A stretch of 36,558 nucleotides of DNA. Source: Candidatus Thalassarchaeum sp. GTDB lineage: Archaea > Thermoplasmatota > Poseidoniia > Poseidoniales > Thalassarchaeaceae. The DNA lies in contig CBFHQW010000003.1 in NCBI GenBank assembly GCA_965658085.1, forward strand, positions 1 through 36,558, read 5' to 3'. This document shows, piece by piece, positions 3,040 to 30,659 of this stretch. Numbering within the stretch: the stretch's first letter is position 1; the number at the start of each line of letters is the position of its first letter. The notes under the pieces were generated by a model. The model was given only the letters and a program-made list of their open reading frames with translations. It searched no databases and was not told the origin of the DNA. Made by a program: the position numbers and the translations under genes.

Positions 3040-3114
3040 ACGAGTGTAGTGTAGTGGTTATCACCGGGCGTTGCCAACGCCTGAACCCGGGTTCAAATCC
3101 CGGCACTCGTACCA
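3040..3114 (+). tRNA. tRNA-Gly (anticodon GCC), CCA encoded
   Basis: Hand-folded cloverleaf. Acceptor is ACGAGTG/CACTCGT. Anticodon stem is GGGCG/CGCCT with loop TTGCCAA. T arm is CCGGG-TTCAAAT-CCCGG. Discriminator A is followed by CCA. Confidence 0.9.
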
Positions 3115-3545: not shown

Positions 3546-3620
3546 GCGGACATGGTCTAGTGGTTATGACAGTAGGTTCCCAACCTGCTAACCCGGGTTC
3601 AACTCCCGGTGTCCGCACCA
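3546..3620 (+). tRNA. tRNA-Gly (anticodon CCC), CCA encoded
   Basis: Hand-folded cloverleaf. Acceptor is GCGGACA/TGTCCGC. Anticodon stem is GTAGG/CCTGC with loop TTCCCAA. T arm is CCGGG-TTCAACT-CCCGG. Discriminator A plus CCA. Confidence 0.9.
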
Positions 3621-13194: not shown

Positions 13195-13446
13195 TTAGAT
13201 TTCGTCCAAGGCTCCAGGCCTCAGTTGCCAGACGCAGATTTCGTAGCGACCAGAGAGGGCACCGCCACGCTTTGTCGTTGCGACCTTCATGATATCCTTG
13301 TCTTTGGACAGGACATTCCCCAGTTGCTGAGGAGTAGTACCGTGACGCATGGTAGAATTCACGTGTTCAAGAATCTCCGTTGTGTTGGCTTCTCCTCTGT
13401 CATCCAAGAATTTTTTTATCTTCTGTCGTAGTCTTGTTGTTCTCAT
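13195..13446 (-). CDS. Small hypothetical protein, putative winged-helix (paralog A)
   Basis: 83 aa with a GGAGG 6-7 nt upstream of the ATG. It aligns with the neighbouring 88-aa ORF on the pattern R..I(K/R)K(F/Y)L....N(S/T).EI......G......L...D..I(M/V)(K/R)(V/I).T.(K/R)(R/K).G. Confidence 0.55.
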   Translation of the reverse strand: MRTTRLRQKIKKFLDDRGEANTTEILEHVNSTMRHGTTPQQLGNVLSKDKDIMKVATTKRGGALSGRYEICVWQLRPGALDEI

Positions 13447-13456
13447 CTAATTCCTC

Positions 13457-13723
13457 CTATTTGTTTTCGGGCTTAGCACGCTCATGGTGCTGCACCCACT
13501 CCTTGGTCGCCCATTCCGAGAGTGGGGGGGTACTGCCGGTCATTCCGCTCTTGCGAATCGTTCCGATACGGACGATACTCGCGTCTGTCTCCATCAGTGA
13601 TGCTAGATCCAAGCTTCCAGAGTAGCCTTCCTGACTACTCAGCCAGGTTGCAATCTCAGCACTGTTCCTAGGCTGCTCAGAGAGGTATTTACGAATGATA
13701 AGTCGGATTTTTCCCGCTTCCAT
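13457..13723 (-). CDS. Small hypothetical protein, putative winged-helix (paralog B)
   Basis: 88 aa with a GGGAG just upstream of the ATG. It is a paralog of the 83-aa ORF, 10 nt upstream of it on the same strand. Confidence 0.55.
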   Translation of the reverse strand: MEAGKIRLIIRKYLSEQPRNSAEIATWLSSQEGYSGSLDLASLMETDASIVRIGTIRKSGMTGSTPPLSEWATKEWVQHHERAKPENK

Positions 13724-13977
13724 CTGTCTCCCTCAAGCATACTCTCGGACCCGGCAGTTGGCCCGATGCGCATAGGATGGCGGGCGCTGATATAACCGTT
13801 CTGCACGAAATCATACTTTTTCGTTACAGATAGTTGCTAGAAATGGGGGCGTTTTCAGGTTTGAACCAAGTGTGGAAATGAAACTGATATATTCTCCATA
13901 AGAAATGTGTAATCAATTGTAACTAAACAACATAATTTAATACATCAACTTTAGTAAGATGTATTGGGAGGTGGCGA
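13724..13977. promoter_or_regulatory. AT-rich divergent intergenic region (bidirectional promoter candidate)
   Basis: By eye, one of the two most AT-rich stretches in the window, with the origin-like spacer. It sits between divergent genes. A TATA-like ataatttaata lies at about 13932-13942. GAAATG occurs three times (13840-13845, 13875-13880, 13902-13907). A GGAGGTG Shine-Dalgarno-like element at 13967-13973 precedes the GTG at 13978. Confidence 0.4.
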
Positions 13978-16599
13978 GTGGTGTCAAATGAACCCCCTGA
14001 GCCTCTGAAACCCGATTATTCGGACAGTGCTTACAAAATCAGGAGCAAGCATCGCAGGAGACTCCTTGATCGGCTAACTGAGGGCGGTGCTACCGTCAGT
14101 GTGCTGGCTAGGGATGTTGAACTCAGGGTTCCGCATGCTTCGGCAGAGATAAAACGACTAAGAAACGATGGACTGGTCTCTAGTGACCTATCTGTTGGGA
14201 GTCGTGGAGCTAAGATCCACCTGACCGAGTTGGGCTGGAAGTCAGTGAGTGCTGACGAGTGGGCTAGGGCTTCCGAGGCCTCTCCCTTGCCTGAAGACTC
14301 CAGCATGTGCTGTCTGCTTTCTCGTGATGGTCCAAACCTCCTGCTTGGAGTTATGGAGCCTTGCGACTCTCCGTTGCTACTGATTCCGAATCGCCCCCCC
14401 GTCGCGATTCCAGGCAATCCCGGTTCCACCGGAAGCGAGGGGGTTGCTTGGAGTTGGGCAGTACTCAGGGAGAGGGAACCTCGATGGTTTGACCTCTCGT
14501 CAATGGAACCCAAGTCGAGCCCCCCGCCGCCCTCCAACCCCGAGAACATAGCGGCTTACTTGGGACAGCGCACTGTAGTCGGAATAATCCGCGCTAGGTT
14601 GCTCGATGCCGAGAGACCGATTGCTATAGCGCCGGGCCAGTGGTTCGGACCTCCAGACTTCCGGCCCGCGCCCCCGTTGCCTGAGAGCGACTATCATCGG
14701 GGGCCGTGGGTACTCGGTGAATGCCATGAGATGTCACCGGAGATTAGGCCGAAGGGACCAGTGGTTGCTGTGATGGAAGACAGACTCCCTCGCTCTATGC
14801 TGCTCAGAACAGCGAGGAATAACTCCCTGGTTATCGCGGATCTCGGGGGGCTGGATACCGAGGGTGACCCATACCCTTTGGCAGCGCTTGATCCGTGGAT
14901 CGAGAGGGCCCACCCGCGTCTGAGTGATGCCGAGAGAAGACGGAGACTAGGCGCCCTGAAGGACAGGGTTAGCAAGACAAGAAAAGTGAGGACTGAGGAT
15001 TCCACCTGGAGAAGATTCAGACAGGATTGGGGTGAGTCGGTATTCACCGAGGAAGGGGATTCAATCAGGATTCTTGACCTAAGGGGACTGGGTGGCACGG
15101 CGGCCGAGGCATTAGTGAGATGGGCAGTCAATGACGACGGCAAACGCCCGCTGACTGTTGAAGTCGGGTCAGATATGCCTGAGGAACTGGTCTCTTCGAT
15201 TGCTTCTCTCTCCAATCTCCGAATGGCTCTTCTCGGGGATGAAGCAGCCGCGTTCTCCAACTTCGATATACTGGATGCCGATCCTCTGAGGCCACTACCT
15301 TGGCTGCGCTTGACAACTAGGGGAGGGAGGATATTGCCAATGCGACTGATCGATCCAGCCCAGGTCCCTGAGTTTTCAGACTCCGATGAACCGACTGTAC
15401 TAGAGTGGGAATCCCTAGGTATCGATATTGAGTTGGCCGAGAATATCGAAGAGGGCCATCTCTCAGTCATCAATTCAGCTGTAGTTCAATATCCCACAGG
15501 CAATGAGGAGTGGGCTAATCAAATGGAAGCCAGATACCCAATTGCGGCTTGGATAGCATCTCCTGCTAGGACAAGATGGCCACGCTGGCAGAGACTCAGG
15601 ACCCGACTCAGTCCAGAGTGGCTAGTACTCATGAATCTAGACGACCTTCCGCTGGAGAGACTGTCAGAGGTCGCAGACGAGGCACCCAACTCGGTTTTGG
15701 AAGAATTCTCCAAGAAGATTACCAACAGACTCAGACAGGATTCCGACGCAGCACTCAGAACGAGACCAGCGACAGATCCGAAGCAAGCAACCCGTGGAGC
15801 CGCTTGGGTAGCAGCCCAACTGCTGTCAAACGCCCCCTGGCTGCCGGAACACATGCATTCGGACTTGCTCCATTGGGCACTTGAGGCATGGCTCTCCGAG
15901 CCCCCAAGTGATTCGATGCCTGCACTACAAGGAGTCGCATGGCTATATTCTCAGGGCCGCAGCGATGAATCCAGTTTCAGACCAATACTCGAGGGGATTC
16001 GGAGCAAGGGAAGAAACTCTCCCTCTGACCATGACCTACATACTTGGGCTAGCCTAGCAGACATGATGCTTGATGACTCAAAGACTAATCTCGATGAATT
16101 GGAGAGGATACTGAACCTACCTCCTGGTTGGTGGGCACCTGTTTCCGTCAAGATACTCTCAGGGTTATTGGATGAGGAGGAATCTACAGATTGGGCTATT
16201 GCCAACACTGTCCCATGGTGCGCGGCAGTGCTGCGCCCGATTGGTGATCTCTGCCAAGCACCCGGACTCCGTTCCTACGAGCATCCTGGATGCGACTCAG
16301 AACTATACTCCCGCCTCTCTCGGAGGTTGAGGGGCAGACGCGAGCGACAGGGTATGCCCGATACTGCTGAACCGTTACTCGATTTACTCGATGCCCTAGA
16401 CGCGGTGAATGATGACAAATCCCCTTCGCCGGGAAAGACCCATCCCCTATCGGGGTGGCTCGCCCAGCCTCTGGAGAAATGGCCGGATTTCTCCTCTGCC
16501 GAGATCATGGATGGCGATTCTCACATCGCTGAGAGGTTACTCTTGAAGAGTTCAGGATATCATCCAAAAATCGTCCCTTTGACCTCGATTTCGGGTTGA
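13978..16599 (+). CDS. Large (873 aa) hypothetical protein with an N-terminal ArsR/TrmB-like winged HTH; remainder unassignable
   Basis: Uninterrupted 2.6-kb ORF with an SD-like GGAGGTG upstream. Residues about 25-90 (RRLLDRLTEGGATVSVLARDVELRVPHASAEIKRLRNDGLVSS...KIHLTELG) fit a wHTH. The rest is acidic and rich in Trp, Leu and Pro. I saw no P-loop, nuclease, HEPN or metal-binding motif. Confidence 0.7.
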   Translation: MVSNEPPEPLKPDYSDSAYKIRSKHRRRLLDRLTEGGATVSVLARDVELRVPHASAEIKRLRNDGLVSSDLSVGSRGAKIHLTELGWKSVSADEWARASEASPLPEDSSMCCLLSRDGPNLLLGVMEPCDSPLLLIPNRPPVAIPGNPGSTGSEGVAWSWAVLREREPRWFDLSSMEPKSSPPPPSNPENIAAYLGQRTVVGIIRARLLDAERPIAIAPGQWFGPPDFRPAPPLPESDYHRGPWVLGECHEMSPEIRPKGPVVAVMEDRLPRSMLLRTARNNSLVIADLGGLDTEGDPYPLAALDPWIERAHPRLSDAERRRRLGALKDRVSKTRKVRTEDSTWRRFRQDWGESVFTEEGDSIRILDLRGLGGTAAEALVRWAVNDDGKRPLTVEVGSDMPEELVSSIASLSNLRMALLGDEAAAFSNFDILDADPLRPLPWLRLTTRGGRILPMRLIDPAQVPEFSDSDEPTVLEWESLGIDIELAENIEEGHLSVINSAVVQYPTGNEEWANQMEARYPIAAWIASPARTRWPRWQRLRTRLSPEWLVLMNLDDLPLERLSEVADEAPNSVLEEFSKKITNRLRQDSDAALRTRPATDPKQATRGAAWVAAQLLSNAPWLPEHMHSDLLHWALEAWLSEPPSDSMPALQGVAWLYSQGRSDESSFRPILEGIRSKGRNSPSDHDLHTWASLADMMLDDSKTNLDELERILNLPPGWWAPVSVKILSGLLDEEESTDWAIANTVPWCAAVLRPIGDLCQAPGLRSYEHPGCDSELYSRLSRRLRGRRERQGMPDTAEPLLDLLDALDAVNDDKSPSPGKTHPLSGWLAQPLEKWPDFSSAEIMDGDSHIAERLLLKSSGYHPKIVPLTSISG

Positions 16600-16955: not shown

Positions 16956-17972
16956 ATGCACGAAGTCGGCCTAATCGGCGGCACCTTCGACCGCTTCCAT
17001 GCCGGACACTTATCGCTGATGGAAGCCGGACTGTCTGAATGCTCCTCTATCGAGGCCTGGCTCACCGCAGATCGTATTGCTCTCTCGAAGGACCCGCGGG
17101 TGAATCCATGGGATACAAGGACTCTAGAAATGAAGGAGGCGTTGGGGGACGATGCTGGCAGAGTTAGGTTCCATGTTCTCGAAGATAACCATGGACCCGC
17201 ACCGGTGCATACTGATGCCACAGCGATTATCTGCACCGAAGAGACTCGCGCCGAGTGCGAGGAGATTAACCGATTGAGAGAAGGCAACGACCTGTCACCA
17301 CTACACATCATCAGCGTAGGACACGTACTCGCATGGGACGGTGAACCGATATCTAGCTCTAGGATTAGAGCAGGGGAAATCGACCGTAACGGAAAATCAT
17401 GGATTCCAAACTCGATTAGGACAGGCAGAGTTGTCCTGACATCTCAGGTCGAAGCAGAACTCAAAGAGCCCTTCGGTCAGTTAGTTCCTGGTCCTGAGGA
17501 CAATCTATCTGTTGCGATGACAGAAGTCCTCGCCCATGTCGAAGGTGAGCCAGGTCCAATCATCGCTGTCGGTGATGTGACAGTCCGCACTATGCAGGAC
17601 CTCAACCGACCAGCTGACATTGCTCTCATAGATGGACTCACTAGGAGGGAGCCATGGGAGGGTGCAGACGGAATTGACTCATCGTTGTATGATGGGACCC
17701 TGCAGTGTTCCAGTCCTGCTGGTTCCCTGACGCCTTCGCTACTGGAGGCCTGTGAGCGGGCAATGAAATCCTGGAAGGAAGGGCGATTGACCCACCTAAT
17801 TCAGGTTGAAGGTGAGGAAGATCTAGCCCCACTTATCTTACATCCACTGGCTCCCTTGGGTGCTGTTGTGCTATATGGCCAGCCGGGGAAAGGAGTCGTA
17901 GTCAGATGGTGTGGAGAGGACGCCAAACAGCGTTGTCGCAGACTGCTCAGAGAATTCATTCCCGCCGAATGA
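16956..17972 (+). CDS. Bifunctional CoA biosynthesis protein: archaeal phosphopantetheine adenylyltransferase (PPAT) fused to a DUF359-type GTP-dependent dephospho-CoA kinase (DPCK)
   Basis: The N-terminal half has GGTFDRFHAGHLSLMEAG and ISSSRIRAGEIDRNG (cytidylyltransferase fold, archaeal PPAT type). The C-terminal half has LKEPFGQL, IIAVGDVTVRTM, IALIDGLTRRE, VEGEEDLAPL and VVLYGQPGKGVVV. Those are the DUF359 signature as I recall it from the Thermococcus TK1697 family. Confidence 0.75.
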   Translation: MHEVGLIGGTFDRFHAGHLSLMEAGLSECSSIEAWLTADRIALSKDPRVNPWDTRTLEMKEALGDDAGRVRFHVLEDNHGPAPVHTDATAIICTEETRAECEEINRLREGNDLSPLHIISVGHVLAWDGEPISSSRIRAGEIDRNGKSWIPNSIRTGRVVLTSQVEAELKEPFGQLVPGPEDNLSVAMTEVLAHVEGEPGPIIAVGDVTVRTMQDLNRPADIALIDGLTRREPWEGADGIDSSLYDGTLQCSSPAGSLTPSLLEACERAMKSWKEGRLTHLIQVEGEEDLAPLILHPLAPLGAVVLYGQPGKGVVVRWCGEDAKQRCRRLLREFIPAE

Positions 17973-18558: not shown

Positions 18559-19797
18559 TCAGAGTTGACTCTGTAGGTTGTATCTGCCGAGTGCGGCCTC
18601 GGCAATCATGGGTTCACTCTCACTCATTGTGGTGATGGCGTCCACCGCCTTGGGTATGGCCGAGTTGACCTGTTTGCTCCTTCCACCGCGGCCCTTGCTG
18701 ACGTTCCTAGCCATAATCAACCCGAGCGTATCGAGTTCGTTGAGCAGCGAAGATATTCTCCTAGGAGTGAGTGGCTCGACACTGATTTTCATGCATGCTT
18801 CGGTATAAGTCCGGTAAGTCTCTCCAGTGGAGATATTCCTCAGGCCATTATCTTCGTTCAGCCTGATTGAGAATAGTAACAACTTCTGGTGCAGGGGCAG
18901 AGTCTTCAGTACAGGAGTCACTTGGTCATACTCCAACTGACTCTGTGCCAGTCTGACGTGTCTTGGGTCCACAACCTTCTGAGCCCGCTGCTCCGCCTTC
19001 TGCACTGAGATGCGCAACAGGTCGAGCGCCCTGCGCGCGTCCCCGTGCTCCTGTGCGGCCAGTGCCGAACAGAGTTCAAGCACGCCAGAATCGAGGACTC
19101 CCTCGCGAAGACCGGTGCTAACGCGCTCGGTTAGGATGTCCTGAATCTCCGGAGCTCCGTAGGGGTGAAAGACGACATCCTCTTGACTGAGCCTCGAGCT
19201 GACTCGAGGGTCGAGTTGCTGAGTGAAGTGCAAATCGTTGCTGATTCCGACGAGACAGCAGCGGGCGTTTTTCAGAGAAGTGTTCAAGCTGGTCAGGTTG
19301 TACAGCAAACCATCTCCAGCTCTGGCCACGAGATTGTCGATTTCGTCCAATACTAGGATGTGCACCCCCCCCGCTCGATCCATCCTTTCAATCAGGACAT
19401 CGAGGACCCTGTCAGTGGGCCAGCCAGTGAATGGAATTGGAGTGTCTCCTCGTCGAGCGAGTTGGGAGGCGATGCTCTGGACGACGCGGTACTTGGTATC
19501 CACGACACGGCAGTTGATTTCGTAGGTCTCAACGCTTTGCCCCATCTCCTTGCCCTTGTCGAGAAGCTGCCCTAAGACGAATCTCGTGACCACAGTTTTG
19601 CCTGATCCTGGTACCCCATAGAGAAGCATGTTCGAAGGGATATGGCCATTCAAAGCATCAACCATATTGCGTACCAAGGCATCCACTTCGTGGTCTCTGT
19701 GGGGCAGGGTAGATGGCTCGAAGGCGTGATCGAACGCTCGCCTGTCAACGAAGAGACTATCTTGGCCGAGAATCTTTTCGAAAATGTTTCCTTCCAT
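18559..19797 (-). CDS. cdc6: Orc1/Cdc6 replication initiator
   Basis: 412 aa. Walker A is LLYGVPGSGKT and Walker B is ILVLDEID. Sensor regions are GDARRALDLLR. The C-terminal winged helix is LLNELDTLGLI...SKGRGGRSK. Confidence 0.95.
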   Translation of the reverse strand: MEGNIFEKILGQDSLFVDRRAFDHAFEPSTLPHRDHEVDALVRNMVDALNGHIPSNMLLYGVPGSGKTVVTRFVLGQLLDKGKEMGQSVETYEINCRVVDTKYRVVQSIASQLARRGDTPIPFTGWPTDRVLDVLIERMDRAGGVHILVLDEIDNLVARAGDGLLYNLTSLNTSLKNARCCLVGISNDLHFTQQLDPRVSSRLSQEDVVFHPYGAPEIQDILTERVSTGLREGVLDSGVLELCSALAAQEHGDARRALDLLRISVQKAEQRAQKVVDPRHVRLAQSQLEYDQVTPVLKTLPLHQKLLLFSIRLNEDNGLRNISTGETYRTYTEACMKISVEPLTPRRISSLLNELDTLGLIMARNVSKGRGGRSKQVNSAIPKAVDAITTMSESEPMIAEAALGRYNLQSQL

Positions 19798-20194
19798 TTT
19801 CTTTCACCCGGGGTCCAGTCGCGTATCCAGTCCCTCTCTTACTCTGGTTGAGTAGGTGTCGGCGAACGCGGATTCTTAGCGAGGGTGCAGGAGGTAATAA
19901 GACTGTCCGAGAAGAATGAAATTTTGGTTGATTATCATGCCCTCTAATGCCTCAGTATCATGCCCCTCTAACATTCACCTGAGATCTCGCTTAGTTGTAC
20001 TCAGTCAGGCTTTTTATCAATATAATTTCAGTGTATTTATTGCATCAAATTCACTCATTCATATATTTCCCCCACCCCTGCCAATATGGCAGGTAATCGA
20101 GCCTTCCGAGGACTCTCCAACAGCGACATCTGCCGCTATTTCTGGGAACTACCCTGAGGCTCAATGAAAGCTAATATAAAACAAGATAAATTAT
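19798..20194. other. Putative replication origin region adjacent to orc1/cdc6 (AT-rich unwinding element plus repeats)
   Basis: 397-nt non-coding spacer immediately upstream of cdc6. The AT-rich core is at about 20009-20070. A direct repeat TATCATGCC(C)CTCTAA occurs at 19933-19947 and 19956-19971. TCCAGTC occurs twice (19814-19820, 19826-19832). A hairpin CCTGCCA-ATA-TGGCAGG lies at 20077-20093, next to a C-run (G-run on the other strand). Confidence 0.45.
19933..19971 (+). repeat. Tandem direct repeat TATCATGCC(C)CTCTAA x2 (23-nt period)
   Basis: Read directly from the sequence. The two copies differ by one inserted C. Confidence 0.8.
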
Positions 20195-30582: not shown

Positions 30583-30659
30583 TGGTGCGCCCGCCGGGAT
30601 TTGAACCCAGGATATGAGGTTGGAAACCTCAGGTGATAACCAGACTTCACTACAGGCGC
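30583..30659 (-). tRNA. tRNA-Gly (anticodon UCC), CCA encoded
   Basis: The reverse complement folds as acceptor GCGCCTG/CGGGCGC (one G.U), D stem GTGA/TCAC, anticodon stem TGAGG/CCTCA with loop TTTCCAA, and T arm CTGGG-TTCAAAT-CCCGG, then A-CCA. Confidence 0.85.

What the first reader, a model, noticed from the sequence alone, without database searches (positions are those of the whole stretch)
13195..16599. Orphan winged-helix trio: two tandem small paralogs facing an 873-aa HTH-headed giant protein across an AT-rich spacer
Seen in the sequence. Two adjacent minus-strand ORFs (83 and 88 aa) each have an SD-like GGAGG or GGGAG. They align with each other over their whole length in a pattern compatible with a small winged helix. 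A 254-nt spacer separates them from a divergent 2.6-kb ORF. By eye it is one of the two most AT-rich stretches in the window, and it contains three GAAATG copies and TATA-like boxes. Only the first ~90 residues of the large ORF are interpretable (ArsR/TrmB-like wHTH). The remaining ~780 residues are acidic and rich in Trp, Leu and Pro. I saw no P-loop, nuclease, HEPN, methyltransferase or metal-binding signature.

Inference. Three DNA-binding-type proteins around one shared control region, embedded between housekeeping operons (gluconeogenesis on one side, the structured non-coding region (candidate RNA gene) and CoA synthesis on the other), look like a self-contained lineage-specific module. 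Possible roles are autoregulated chromatin or segregation factors, a defence sensor, or a remnant of an integrated element. This is my best candidate for an undescribed system in the window. I cannot assign a function.
Basis: partly seen in the sequence, partly recalled or inferred. Interest (0 to 1): 0.7.

Follow-up and report, generated by a model that had tools for sequence, protein, structure and literature searches.

The report
Origin-linked DNA-binding trio in Poseidoniales
Three DNA-binding-type genes of marine group II archaea, one nearly invariant across the lineage, flank a short ultra-conserved DNA stretch carrying recognition boxes for the replication initiator, so this is probably part of the replication-start or initiator-controlled region, not a defence or mobile element.

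Summary
Both small ORFs are Pfam DUF3860 (crystal structure 2OD5). The 873-aa protein belongs to a family found only in Marine Group II (Poseidoniales) MAGs. The 12-kb block, MoaC through Orc1/Cdc6, is syntenic in all 88 related loci with native composition, so it is core genome, not a defence or integrated element.

New findings:
- DUF3860-A is the most conserved gene here: 91-100% identical where Orc1/Cdc6 is about 80% and the large protein 43-55%. Its synonymous sites are saturated. DUF3860-B is a fast-evolving, lineage-specific duplicate.
- The 254-bp spacer is ultra-conserved at fixed spacing and has no RNA structure.
- It carries a mini origin-recognition box (ORB). A full ORB with G-string lies 445 nt inside the large gene and freezes synonymous codons there. 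These are the only consensus ORBs within about 8 kb of the Orc1-1-type initiator gene.

Best reading, partly inferred: this is an Orc1/Cdc6-bound origin or origin-proximal control region, flanked by lineage-specific DNA-binding proteins. Only the winged helix of the large protein has any detectable relative (confident model, pLDDT 87).

The parts
13195..13446 (-). DUF3860-A: 83-aa basic (pI 9.8) small DNA-binding-type protein, residues 1-76 almost invariant in the lineage
   Evidence: PF12976 E 3.9e-39, 133 bits against a cut-off of 27. PDB 2OD5 E 2.9e-30. It is 91-100% identical across 85 loci where Cdc6 is 79-99% and the large protein 43-97%. Synonymous sites are saturated. pI.
13457..13723 (-). 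DUF3860-B: 88-aa paralogue, first gene of a B-A operon (10-nt gap). It evolves fast and is missing in many lineages. It keeps the ancestral C-terminal 'SEWATxEWVxHHER' helix that A has lost.
   Evidence: PF12976 E 9.1e-21. It is 43-60% identical in loci where A is over 90%, and absent in about 25 loci. Family alignment.
13724..13977 (.). Divergent control region. It is the most AT-rich stretch of the window and is ultra-conserved at the DNA level with rigid spacing.
   Evidence: GC 0.42. 28% of columns (36% in the core, 13777-13945) are at least 90% conserved over 80 distinct sequences, with a gap fraction of 0.1-0.4%. The cdc6 upstream region has 5% such columns and 7.6% gaps (alignments). 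No consensus RNA structure: -0.9 kcal/mol and no covariation.
13777..13806 (-). Conserved block with the candidate TATA box (GATATAAC, 13789-13796, read on the - strand as GTTATATC) of the DUF3860 operon. The inferred transcription start is near 13766.
   Evidence: The motif sits at a fixed 189 nt upstream of the large gene's start in most loci. The consensus is AGGa.gGCgG..G.T.ATATAAc..TTCTGcA. Its role as a promoter is inferred.
13823..13837 (+). GTTACA-n4-GTTGC: a direct repeat of a 5-mer at 10-bp phasing, inverted relative to the TGTAA pair at 13908-13923
   Evidence: GTTAC is invariant in a 40-sequence alignment. It is also present in L088, where the large protein is 25% identical. The binding protein is unknown.
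13872..13885 (+). Half-ORB GTGGAAATGAAACT (contains the second GAAATG)
   Evidence: It is identical to the 3' half of the sequence TTTCCAGTGGAAATGAAACTCC in a T. barophilus primer (PMC11005403). It is conserved at 70% or more in the sublineages nearest the window and scores at least 7 bits in 11-17 of 83 loci.
13893..13908 (+). Mini-ORB 'ORB-a' (contains the third GAAATG). It is degenerate in this window (TCTCCATAAGAAATGT, 6.5 bits) but canonical in relatives (TTTCCAGTGGAAAT, up to 23.7 of 25.5 bits).
   Evidence: Scored with a matrix built only from published ORBs of other orders. It is the best hit of the whole locus in 49 of 88 loci, always at -85 or -73 from the start codon. It is retained in L086 and L088.
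13908..13923 (+). TGTAAT-n4-TGTAAC direct repeat at 10-bp phasing, between ORB-a and the TATA box of the large gene
   Evidence: At least 90% conserved as 'TgTAA..AAaTGTAAc'. Retained in L088 and L086.
13932..13943 (+). Candidate TATA box ATAATTTAATAC of the large gene, followed by SD GGGAGG (13966-13971) and the GTG start at 13978
   Evidence: Conserved as 'atAaTTTA.tac'. Sequence read. Its role as a promoter is inferred from position.
13978..16599 (+). 873-aa acidic protein. Domains: ArsR/MarR-like wHTH (about residues 20-100), beta-rich domain (about 110-300), alpha/beta domain (about 300-460), linker (462-475), large all-alpha domain (about 477-855).
   Evidence: AlphaFold2 model from 42 sequences: mean pLDDT 87.2, pTM 0.60. 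Only the wHTH has PDB, BFVD, Pfam or PDB-sequence relatives. The family has 190 representatives, about 55 of them full length, all from marine euryarchaeal MAGs.
14424..14444 (+). Full ORB 'ORB-b' with G-string, TTCCACCGGAAGCGAGGGGGT, embedded in codons 149-156 (G-S-T-G-S-E-G-V)
   Evidence: A match to the 21-nt ORB consensus with 5 or fewer mismatches occurs almost only here: 81 hits over 88 loci, against 0.15 expected per 36 kb. Ser150 is TCC in 74/77 (background 17%). Residue 152 is GGA in 57/57 Gly and AGA in 22 Arg. Gly155 is GGG in 77/78 (background 19%). It is the strongest synonymous-constraint peak of the whole gene, 0.51 against a mean of 0.054 and SD 0.09. It lies in a pLDDT<50 loop (147-154). 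It is present in L086-L088.
14161..14178 (+). Second, weaker synonymous-constraint peak, AGAAACGATGGACTGGTC (codons 62-67). It may be another embedded DNA element, since it contains the GAAACGA of the archaeal ORB consensus.
Evidence: Excess codon homozygosity 0.26. Arg62 is AGA/AGG in 76/80 and Ser69 is AGT/AGC in 77/80.
18559..19797 (-). Context: Orc1/Cdc6 initiator gene of the ORB-reading Orc1-1 type, 4.1-4.7 kb from the two ORBs
   Evidence: Pfam Cdc6_C, Cdc6_lid and AAA. Best PDB matches are A. pernix ORC1 2V1U (7e-88) and S. solfataricus Orc1-1 2QBY_A (2e-83). Its own upstream region (19798-20194) has no ORB and is poorly conserved.

Best explanation
This is a vertically inherited, origin-proximal core-genome module of Marine Group II archaea (order Poseidoniales).

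Shown:
- The two small genes are DUF3860 paralogues. A is under extreme protein-level purifying selection. B is a lineage-specific, fast-evolving duplicate.
- The 873-aa protein belongs to a family found only in Marine Group II (Poseidoniales) MAGs. It has an ArsR/MarR-type winged helix followed by three domains with no detectable relatives.
- The genes are transcribed divergently from a 254-bp AT-rich spacer. The spacer is conserved as DNA, not as RNA, with rigid spacing.
- The spacer contains a mini origin-recognition box, a half-ORB and phased GTTAC/TGTAAC repeats. A complete ORB with G-string is embedded 445 nt inside the large gene, where it freezes synonymous codon positions.
- An Orc1-1-type initiator gene lies 2 kb past the end of the large gene. 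Its own upstream region has no ORB.

Inferred:
- Orc1/Cdc6 binds the two ORBs. The region is therefore either the chromosomal replication origin or an Orc1-controlled, cell-cycle-coupled promoter.
- DUF3860-A is an abundant architectural or sequence-specific DNA-binding protein, NAP-like.
- DUF3860-A and/or the winged helix of the large protein occupy the phased GTTAC repeats, regulating the divergent promoters and possibly organising the ORB region.
For: Membership and distribution.

Synteny of MoaC, FBPase, aldolase, DUF3860, the large gene, PPAT/DUF359, a membrane protein, Orc1/Cdc6 and MBL holds in 88 loci. The DUF3860/large-gene pair is kept in the three most divergent loci despite upstream rearrangement.

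Native composition.

Selection on A: 91-100% amino-acid identity against 79-99% for Cdc6, with third-position identity of only 0.32-0.40, as in neighbouring genes.

Spacer constraint. No RNA structure.

ORBs:
- Published consensus sequences are in PMC4153887 Table 2, PMC1904270 and PMC11005403.
- An independent scoring matrix puts the best hit of each ~16-kb locus at -85 or +445 in 78 of 88 loci.
- The full 21-nt ORB is found almost only at +445.
- Codon freezing.
- Retention at 25% protein identity.

Orc1-1 type of the neighbouring initiator.

Precedent for ORB clusters inside a coding gene within 5 kb of cdc6 in Thermococcales: PMC1904270.

Diaforarchaea lost histones and Alba and turn over NAPs rapidly: PMC7613761.
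Against: - There are only two strong ORBs, 530 bp apart and scoring best in the same orientation. The textbook arrangement is closely spaced inverted ORBs flanking an unwinding element next to cdc6.
- ORB-a is degenerate in this very window (6.5 bits).
- The coding-strand-corrected GC3-skew switch at the spacer has the right sign but is not significant (p = 0.17).
- Two promoters alone could explain the AT-richness.
- Solitary ORBs away from origins exist in Methanomassiliicoccales.
- No expression, abundance or binding data exist for any of the three proteins.
- The DUF3860 fold was not examined here, because both structure-prediction jobs went to the large protein.
- Because the whole block is syntenic, adjacency alone is weak evidence for a functional link.
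- A second origin or a second orc1 paralogue elsewhere in the genome cannot be excluded.
Confidence: 0.55

Rival explanations
1. This is an ordinary divergent regulator/target cassette. DUF3860 and/or the winged helix of the large protein autoregulate the two promoters through the GTTAC/TGTAAC repeats. The ORBs are used by Orc1/Cdc6 only as a transcription factor, coupling expression to the cell cycle or to DNA damage. The replication origin lies elsewhere.
For: The conserved motifs sit at classic operator and activator positions relative to the two candidate TATA boxes. The two ORBs are in the same orientation and 530 bp apart. Orc1 paralogues act as global transcription regulators in Sulfolobales (abstract of PMC9738581). 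Solitary ORBs outside origins are reported. The skew test is not significant.
Against: The neighbouring initiator is of the Orc1-1 type. No other ORB exists within about 8 kb of it, not even in its own upstream region. The spacer is the most AT-rich DNA of the window. The extreme conservation of DUF3860-A is unusual for a local autoregulator.
Confidence: 0.3
2. DUF3860-A is a general nucleoid-associated protein of histone-less Marine Group II archaea. It has no specific functional tie to the large protein or to the ORBs, and adjacency reflects only the frozen gene order of this region.
For: The protein is small and basic, has a strong SD, is a single gene in many lineages, and is the most conserved protein of the block. 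The entire 12-kb block is syntenic, so co-localisation is not specific. Diaforarchaea lack histones and Alba and have lineage-specific NAPs.
Against: The DUF3860/large-gene divergent pair survives where upstream genes were inverted or replaced (L088). The shared spacer has rigid, symmetric motif architecture. MG-II already carries MC1 in most members. There are no abundance data.
Confidence: 0.2
3. The ORB matches are incidental. The peptide S-x-G-N-x-G-V is what is selected, and the spacer motif is just a palindromic operator.
For: The ORB core is short and palindromic. This window's ORB-a scores only 6.5 bits.
Against: Synonymous positions are frozen: TCC 74/77, GGA 57/57, GGG 77/78. The Gly-to-Arg change keeps xGA. 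This is the top synonymous-constraint peak of the gene. The peptide lies in a low-confidence loop. The match extends over 20-21 nt including the G-string. A matrix built only from other orders finds these two positions in 78 of 88 loci.
Confidence: 0.06
4. One reading: a self-contained defence sensor or a remnant of an integrated element.
For: The large protein is multidomain, has an HTH head and has no annotation. There are weak PADLOC hits to CasR/Csa3.
Against: The PADLOC hits cover only the generic wHTH. PHROGs and BFVD give nothing. GC, GC3 and codon use are native. The module is present at the same chromosomal position in every Poseidoniales locus examined. No integrase, repeats or tRNA flank it.
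Confidence: 0.02

Closest known systems
Archaeal oriC / ORB-Orc1/Cdc6 systems (Sulfolobus oriC1, Pyrococcus oriC with its second ORB cluster inside dp1, Methanomassiliicoccales ORB pairs)
   Same: The ORB sequence is the same, with dyad TTCCAnnGGAA plus a G-string: TTCCACCGGAAGCGAGGGGGT here against the consensus GTTCCAGTGGAAATGG-AGGGGT. The context is AT-rich. An Orc1-1-type initiator is encoded nearby. One ORB lies inside a coding sequence within about 5 kb of cdc6, as in Thermococcales.
   Different: There is only one full ORB and one mini-ORB, 530 bp apart and in the same best-scoring orientation. They are 4.1-4.7 kb from orc1 rather than adjacent. There is no experimental or skew confirmation that initiation occurs here.
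Pfam PF12976 (DUF3860) / PDB 2OD5 (JCSG structure of a Global Ocean Sampling protein of unknown function)
   Same: Both small proteins are members. 2OD5 resembles the single-copy, roughly 100-aa form seen in the most divergent loci.
   Different: No function has been published for the family. The A/B duplication, the extreme conservation of A and the genomic link to the ORBs and the large protein appear not to have been described.
UBP of Sulfolobus (ucm-binding protein; PMC12141716)
   Same: A small (111 aa against 83 aa), basic (pI 9.3 against 9.8), lineage-restricted DNA-binding protein tied to a replication origin. It is a functional analogy for what DUF3860-A might be.
   Different: There is no sequence relationship. 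UBP binds DNA through beta-hairpins of a saddle-shaped fold. UBP's origin binding and essentiality are experimentally shown, whereas nothing is shown for DUF3860.
WhiP (Cdt1-like winged-helix initiator protein encoded beside Sulfolobus oriC3)
   Same: A winged-helix protein encoded directly beside an initiator-bound AT-rich region.
   Different: No homology was detected. The large protein here is 873 aa, with three further domains that have no relatives.
ArsR/SmtB and MarR winged-helix repressors
   Same: The fold of residues about 20-100 matches (Foldseek prob 1.0, TM to target up to 0.67-0.77). The divergent-promoter arrangement is typical of autoregulators.
   Different: HMM scores are below the family cut-offs. 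There are no metal-site motifs. The protein is about 8 times longer.
HerA/FtsK-type ASCE ATPases
   Same: The best non-HTH PDB hit of the confident model is T. kodakarensis HerA (E 2.9e-3, 589 aligned columns). ABC ATPases FtsE and OppD follow.
   Different: TM-scores are only 0.22-0.30 and rmsd is 15 A. There are no Walker A or B motifs. This is a lead only.

Membership tests
Pfam PF12976 (DUF3860) | Score above the curated gathering threshold (27 bits) over most of the model | tested here: met
   The 83-aa protein scores 133 bits over model positions 1-74 of 93. The 88-aa protein scores 74.1 bits over 1-86 of 93.
Pfam PF12976 (DUF3860) | Sequence similarity to the family's solved structure, 2OD5 | tested here: met
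   phmmer E 2.9e-30 for A. The family profile gives E 2e-39.
   Both structure-prediction jobs went to the large protein, and 2OD5 coordinates could not be compared with these tools. Profile comparison with the large protein's wHTH is negative (1.5% probability). There is only a weak PADLOC hit to a C-terminal wHTH region (E 0.017).
ArsR/SmtB metalloregulators | HMM score above the curated cut-off | tested here: not met
   HTH_20 scores 20.3 bits (cut-off 27). HTH_5 scores 17 (cut-off 22). NF033788 scores 26.7 (cut-off 55).
ArsR/SmtB metalloregulators | Winged-helix fold of the DNA-binding domain | tested here: met
   Foldseek hits to CzrA, BigR, NolR, SmtB and many MarR proteins, with prob 1.0 and TM to target of 0.41-0.77.
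ArsR/SmtB metalloregulators | Small dimeric protein with alpha3N or alpha5 metal-binding residues | tested here: not met
   The protein is 873 aa and has no CxxC or Cys/His cluster.
Archaeal replication origin (oriC) | ORB elements matching the archaeal consensus | tested here: met
   ORB-b has at most 5 mismatches in 21 nt in nearly all loci and as few as 2 in L087. ORB-a scores up to 23.7 of 25.5 bits.
Archaeal replication origin (oriC) | Several ORBs, typically inverted, flanking an AT-rich unwinding element | tested here: inconclusive
   There are two ORBs plus one half-site, with the same best orientation and 530 bp apart. A stretch of about 70 bp that is visibly AT-rich by eye (GC not computed) lies directly beside ORB-a, and the 254-nt window with the lowest GC in the window (0.374) starts at 13788.
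Archaeal replication origin (oriC) | Location beside the orc1/cdc6 initiator gene | tested here: inconclusive
   An Orc1-1-type gene lies 4.1-4.7 kb away, so it is not adjacent. Its own upstream region lacks ORBs.
Archaeal replication origin (oriC) | Strand-composition switch | tested here: inconclusive
   The coding-strand-corrected GC3-skew contrast is +0.037 at the spacer, permutation p = 0.17. It is -0.039 at the cdc6 upstream region. The window is too short.
Archaeal replication origin (oriC) | Initiation in vivo (marker frequency, 2D gels, ARS activity) | not testable with these tools
   The lineage is uncultured. This needs read-coverage analysis of metagenomes or heterologous assays.
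Nucleoid-associated protein (criteria of Hocher et al. 2022) | Small, DNA-binding, basic | tested here: inconclusive
   The protein is 83 aa with pI 9.8. DNA binding is assumed from its helix-turn-helix-like pattern and was not tested.
Nucleoid-associated protein (criteria of Hocher et al. 2022) | Abundance far above transcription factors; single-gene operon | not testable with these tools
   No proteome data are available. It is a single gene in lineages without B, and a B-A operon here.
Anti-phage defence systems (PADLOC) / phage proteins (PHROGs) | Match to a defence or phage family beyond a generic HTH | tested here: not met
   Only the wHTH of CasR/Csa3/CARF models matches (E 8e-5 to 0.07). 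There are no PHROGs hits.
FtsK/HerA P-loop ATPases | Walker A and Walker B motifs | tested here: not met
   No G....GK[ST] or hhhhD[DE] motif. No Pfam hit for residues 101-873 at E<=10.
FtsK/HerA P-loop ATPases | Fold similarity of the core | tested here: inconclusive
   9x1l_A: E 2.9e-3, TM 0.22/0.30, rmsd 15 A.

The most novel reading that the evidence does not exclude
The DUF3860/large-gene spacer together with the 5' end of the large gene is the chromosomal replication origin of Poseidoniales, with one ORB living inside a protein-coding sequence. The ultra-conserved DUF3860-A and the 873-aa winged-helix protein are lineage-specific origin-binding accessory factors. They would be functional analogues of UBP or WhiP, and the large protein is possibly a degenerate HerA-like ring. 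That would make this an undescribed initiator-accessory system in the most abundant planktonic Euryarchaeota.
Probability: 0.28. Interest if true: 0.8.

Novelty: new variant of a known kind. Interest (0 to 1): 0.55.

Why it matters
Marine Group II archaea are among the most abundant archaea in surface oceans. They are uncultured, and no replication origin or lineage-specific chromatin protein was found described for them in the papers searched.

- A mapped ORB pair gives a concrete anchor for growth-rate (peak-to-trough) estimates from metagenomes.
- It also gives a testable Orc1 binding site.
- DUF3860-A is more conserved than the initiator itself, in a clade that lost histones and Alba. That makes it a strong candidate for an undescribed architectural or origin-associated DNA-binding protein, and a crystal structure already exists.
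- The coding-embedded ORB is a clean example of a DNA element constraining a protein sequence.
- The 780-residue remainder of the large protein is a confidently modelled set of folds with no known relatives.

Tried and rejected
- Structured RNA in the spacer: RNAalifold on 40 sequences of the minus strand gave -0.9 kcal/mol and no covariation. Rfam found nothing in the region. The plus strand was not folded separately.
- Origin in the cdc6-MBL intergenic region: it is AT-rich but poorly conserved and has no ORB.
- Simple ORB-pattern enrichment in the window alone: not significant, 40 matches against 31 expected. Only the comparative, position-resolved analysis was informative.
- First AlphaFold run with 16 close sequences: poor (pLDDT 61.6). 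It was replaced by the 42-sequence run.
- Homology between DUF3860 and the large protein's wHTH: rejected (hhalign probability 1.5%).
- Profile search of the large family against PDB sequences and Pfam: only HTH families. Domain-wise Pfam at E<=10 found nothing.
- Viral fold library: only wHTH hits.
- Defence and phage libraries: negative.
- Foreign-DNA signature: rejected.
- GC3-skew switch: inconclusive.
- Literature on DUF3860, PF12976, 2OD5 function or a Marine Group II origin: nothing found.
- DNA-level conservation as the cause of DUF3860-A's identity: rejected, because synonymous sites are saturated.

Full report
**1. Observation.**
All three ORFs exist at the stated coordinates. SD-like sequences lie at proper spacing, and the large gene starts with GTG. 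The 254-nt spacer (13724-13977) has GC 0.42 against 0.545 for the window. The two GC minima of the whole window are this spacer (13788) and the region upstream of cdc6 (19967). Three GAAATG copies lie on the + strand at 13840, 13875 and 13902, where 0.1 is expected. The large protein is acidic (pI 5.1) and rich in Trp (30) and Pro (80). It has no Walker, GxGxxG or CxxC motifs. Its residues 23-69 give sub-threshold ArsR-type HTH hits. The description is therefore accurate. One qualification applies: the two small proteins do not align by BLASTP. They are related only at profile level, with 19-27% identity in a family alignment.

**2. What the genes are.**
Both small proteins are members of Pfam PF12976 (DUF3860), scoring 133 and 74 bits against a cut-off of 27. 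The 83-aa protein matches PDB 2OD5 at E 2.9e-30. 2OD5 is one of five JCSG structures of novel Global Ocean Sampling families (PMC2557142). No paper in the library discusses the family's function.

The 873-aa protein has 288 or more close relatives, all of 868-876 aa. An exhaustive profile search of 1.84 billion representatives returned only 190 proteins. About 55 are full-length proteins of 800-910 aa and the rest are fragments. None belongs to another family. All named members are Marine Group II, Thalassarchaeaceae or 'Euryarchaeota archaeon' MAGs. The window is 97% identical to MED-G34 and UBA623, which belong to the order Poseidoniales.

**3. Context and inheritance.**
In 88 related loci the gene order is constant: MoaC, FBPase(glpX), aldolase, DUF3860(-), large gene(+), PPAT/DUF359, small membrane protein(-), Orc1/Cdc6(-), MBL(-), FNR-like(+). 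In the three most divergent loci the large protein is 25-29% identical. There a glycosyltransferase is inserted, and in one locus the upstream genes are inverted. The divergent DUF3860/large-gene pair and its linkage to PPAT and Orc1/Cdc6 remain. GC, GC3 and codon usage of the three genes are typical of the window. PADLOC, PHROGs and the viral fold library give nothing beyond a generic winged helix. This is core chromosome, not a defence island or an integrated element.

**4. The small proteins.**
Across the 85 closer loci DUF3860-A is 91-100% identical to the window's copy. Over the same loci Orc1/Cdc6 is 79-99%, aldolase 71-99% and the large protein 43-97%. In the three distant loci A is 70-72% identical, against 52-54% for Cdc6 and 25-29% for the large protein. 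Third-codon positions of A are as diverged as in neighbouring genes (0.32-0.40 identity). The conservation is therefore protein-level purifying selection of unusual strength. Residues 1-76 are essentially invariant and only the last ~7 residues vary. A is basic (pI 9.8).

DUF3860-B evolves as fast as the large protein (43-60% identity) and is absent from about 25 loci. The single-copy protein of the distant loci is 97-107 aa and resembles 2OD5. It combines A's 'NSTMRHGTTxQQLGNVLSKDKDI' segment with B's C-terminal 'EWATxxWV' helix. I infer a duplication followed by subfunctionalisation, so the ancestral unit is a pair rather than a trio.

**5. The large protein.**
With 42 diverse sequences AlphaFold2 gives a confident model: mean pLDDT 87.2 and pTM 0.60. 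The domains are:
- a winged helix, residues about 20-100
- a beta-rich domain, about 110-300
- an alpha/beta domain, about 300-460
- a disordered linker, 462-475
- an all-alpha domain, about 477-855

Foldseek against the PDB finds MarR/ArsR proteins for the winged helix. Apart from those, there is only a weak hit to T. kodakarensis HerA (E 2.9e-3, TM 0.22/0.30, rmsd 15 A) and weaker ABC-ATPase hits. Walker motifs are absent, so this is a lead and not an assignment. Profile searches against PDB sequences and Pfam, including domain-wise searches at E<=10, find only HTH families.

**6. The spacer.**
Over 80 distinct sequences, 28% of spacer columns are at least 90% conserved (36% in the core, 13777-13945), with almost no indels (gap fraction 0.1-0.4%). 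The cdc6-MBL intergenic region has 5% such columns, 7.6% gaps and neutral-like identity (alignments). RNAalifold finds no structure or covariation. The constraint is therefore on double-stranded DNA.

The conserved blocks are:
- a GATATAAC block (13789-13796) at a fixed 189 nt from the large gene's start. It is the candidate TATA box of the DUF3860 operon.
- GTTACA-n4-GTTGC (13823-13837)
- GTGGAAATGAAACT (13872-13885)
- TCTCCATAAGAAATGT (13893-13908)
- TGTAAT-n4-TGTAAC (13908-13923)
- ATAATTTAATAC (13932-13943), the candidate TATA box of the large gene

The two GTTAC-type pairs have 10-bp phasing and are inverted relative to each other.

**7. Origin recognition boxes.**
Published ORB sequences are:
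- the archaeal consensus CTTCCAGTGGAAACGAAAGGGGT
- the Methanomassiliicoccales consensus GTTCCAGTGGAAATGG-AGGGGT (PMC4153887 Table 2)
- the Pyrococcus mini-ORB TTCCAGTGGAACT, with invariant 'TTCC' and 'GAA' (PMC1904270)
- TTTCCAGTGGAAATGAAACTCC, in a T. barophilus primer (PMC11005403)

A 16-nt scoring matrix built only from those sequences places the best hit of each ~16-kb locus at one of two fixed positions in 78 of 88 loci. The positions are -85/-73 from the start codon (ORB-a, up to 23.7 of 25.5 bits, for example TTTCCAGTGGAAATAA) and +445 inside the large gene (ORB-b). The 21-nt full consensus with 5 or fewer mismatches occurs almost only at +445 (81 hits, 0.15 expected per 36 kb). In the window it reads TTCCACCGGAAGCGAGGGGGT (14424-14444).

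ORB-b spans codons 149-156:
- Ser150 is TCC in 74 of 77 sequences, against a background of 17%.
- Residue 152 is GGA in all 57 Gly cases and AGA in the 22 Arg cases.
- Gly155 is GGG in 77 of 78, against a background of 19%.

An unbiased scan of the whole gene puts the strongest synonymous-constraint peak exactly here. The encoded peptide sits in a low-confidence loop. ORB-a and ORB-b persist in the most divergent loci. In this particular window ORB-a is degenerate (6.5 bits). The neighbouring initiator is of the ORB-reading Orc1-1 type (2V1U 7e-88, 2QBY_A 2e-83). Its own upstream region has no ORB.

**8. Mechanism.**

*Shown:*
- a conserved pair or trio of DNA-binding-type genes
- a DNA-level ultra-conserved divergent control region
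- two selected ORBs, the only ones within about 8 kb of orc1-1

*Inferred:*
- Orc1/Cdc6 binds the ORBs. The region is then either the chromosomal origin or an Orc1-controlled promoter.
- Points in favour of an origin: this is the most AT-rich DNA in the window, an AT-rich stretch of about 70 bp lies beside ORB-a, and Thermococcales offer a precedent of ORB clusters inside dp1 near cdc6.
- DUF3860-A acts as an architectural, NAP-like or origin-associated DNA-binding protein. This fits a clade that lost histones and Alba and shows rapid NAP turnover (PMC7613761).
- The phased GTTAC repeats are operators for DUF3860 and/or the large protein's winged helix.

*Against a simple origin model:*
- There are only two ORBs, in the same orientation and 530 bp apart.
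- They are 4 kb from orc1.
- The skew test is non-significant (p = 0.17).

**9. Comparison and novelty.**
Membership in PF12976 is met. Membership in ArsR/SmtB is met at fold level only. The oriC criteria are partly met. The defence and ATPase family criteria are not met.

The closest functional analogues are the Sulfolobus origin-binding NAP UBP (PMC12141716) and the winged-helix initiator WhiP. Neither is homologous.

Three things appear undescribed:
- the ORB pair with a coding-embedded ORB in Poseidoniales
- the extreme conservation and A/B history of DUF3860
- the 873-aa family

I rate this a new variant of a known kind: an archaeal initiator-bound region with lineage-specific flanking DNA-binding proteins. 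Interest is 0.55.

Noticed in passing
window 19798-20194: The intergenic region upstream of orc1/cdc6 is the second most AT-rich stretch of the window. It is poorly conserved and lacks ORBs. Only a block around GGTAATAAGACTGTCCGAG (19892-19911) is conserved across loci, probably the cdc6 promoter or leader. A 70%-identical second copy lies at 20091-20110 in this window.
   Followed up: partly
window 14161-14178: This is the second synonymous-constraint peak inside the large gene (AGAAACGATGGACTGGTC). Arg62 is almost always AGA/AGG and Ser69 always AGT/AGC. It contains the GAAACGA of the archaeal ORB consensus and may be a further embedded DNA element.
   Followed up: partly
It has no Rfam match at gathering threshold. 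In relatives, gene callers place either a 63-69-aa ORF or a longer PPAT N-terminus here. In near-identical loci (e.g. L006) the PPAT reading frame, read stop to stop, is open from about 220 nt after the large gene's stop.
   Followed up: partly
window 16956-17972: The gene is a fusion of a cytidylyltransferase-like domain (PPAT) with DUF359. From general knowledge, DUF359 is the archaeal GTP-dependent dephospho-CoA kinase, so this would be a bifunctional enzyme for the last two CoA steps. It is conserved next to the large gene in all loci.
   Followed up: no
window 13763-13776 (minus strand, candidate 5' leader of the DUF3860 operon): By eye, a small hairpin at the same position seems to vary in sequence between lineages. 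Examples are GGGCCC-AGATT-GGGCCC in L019 and ACCGG-CGA-CCGGT in L013. RNAalifold did not recover it, possibly because of alignment register.
   Followed up: partly
window 3040-3114, 3546-3620, 30583-30659: There are three tRNA-Gly genes with three different anticodons (GCC, CCC, UCC) within 36 kb.
   Followed up: no
L080:6561-6896: In REDSEA-S43_B8 the DUF3860-A reading frame carries an internal deletion, giving 52 aa and removing the predicted recognition helix. This is either an assembly artefact or a rare loss in an otherwise invariant gene.
   Followed up: no
L086-L088 (most divergent loci): A family-2 glycosyltransferase is inserted between PPAT and the small membrane protein. In L087 and L088 the class-I aldolase is replaced by a DeoC-type aldolase. 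In L088 the FBPase-MoaC-MoaE genes are inverted. The DUF3860/large-gene pair is untouched.
   Followed up: partly
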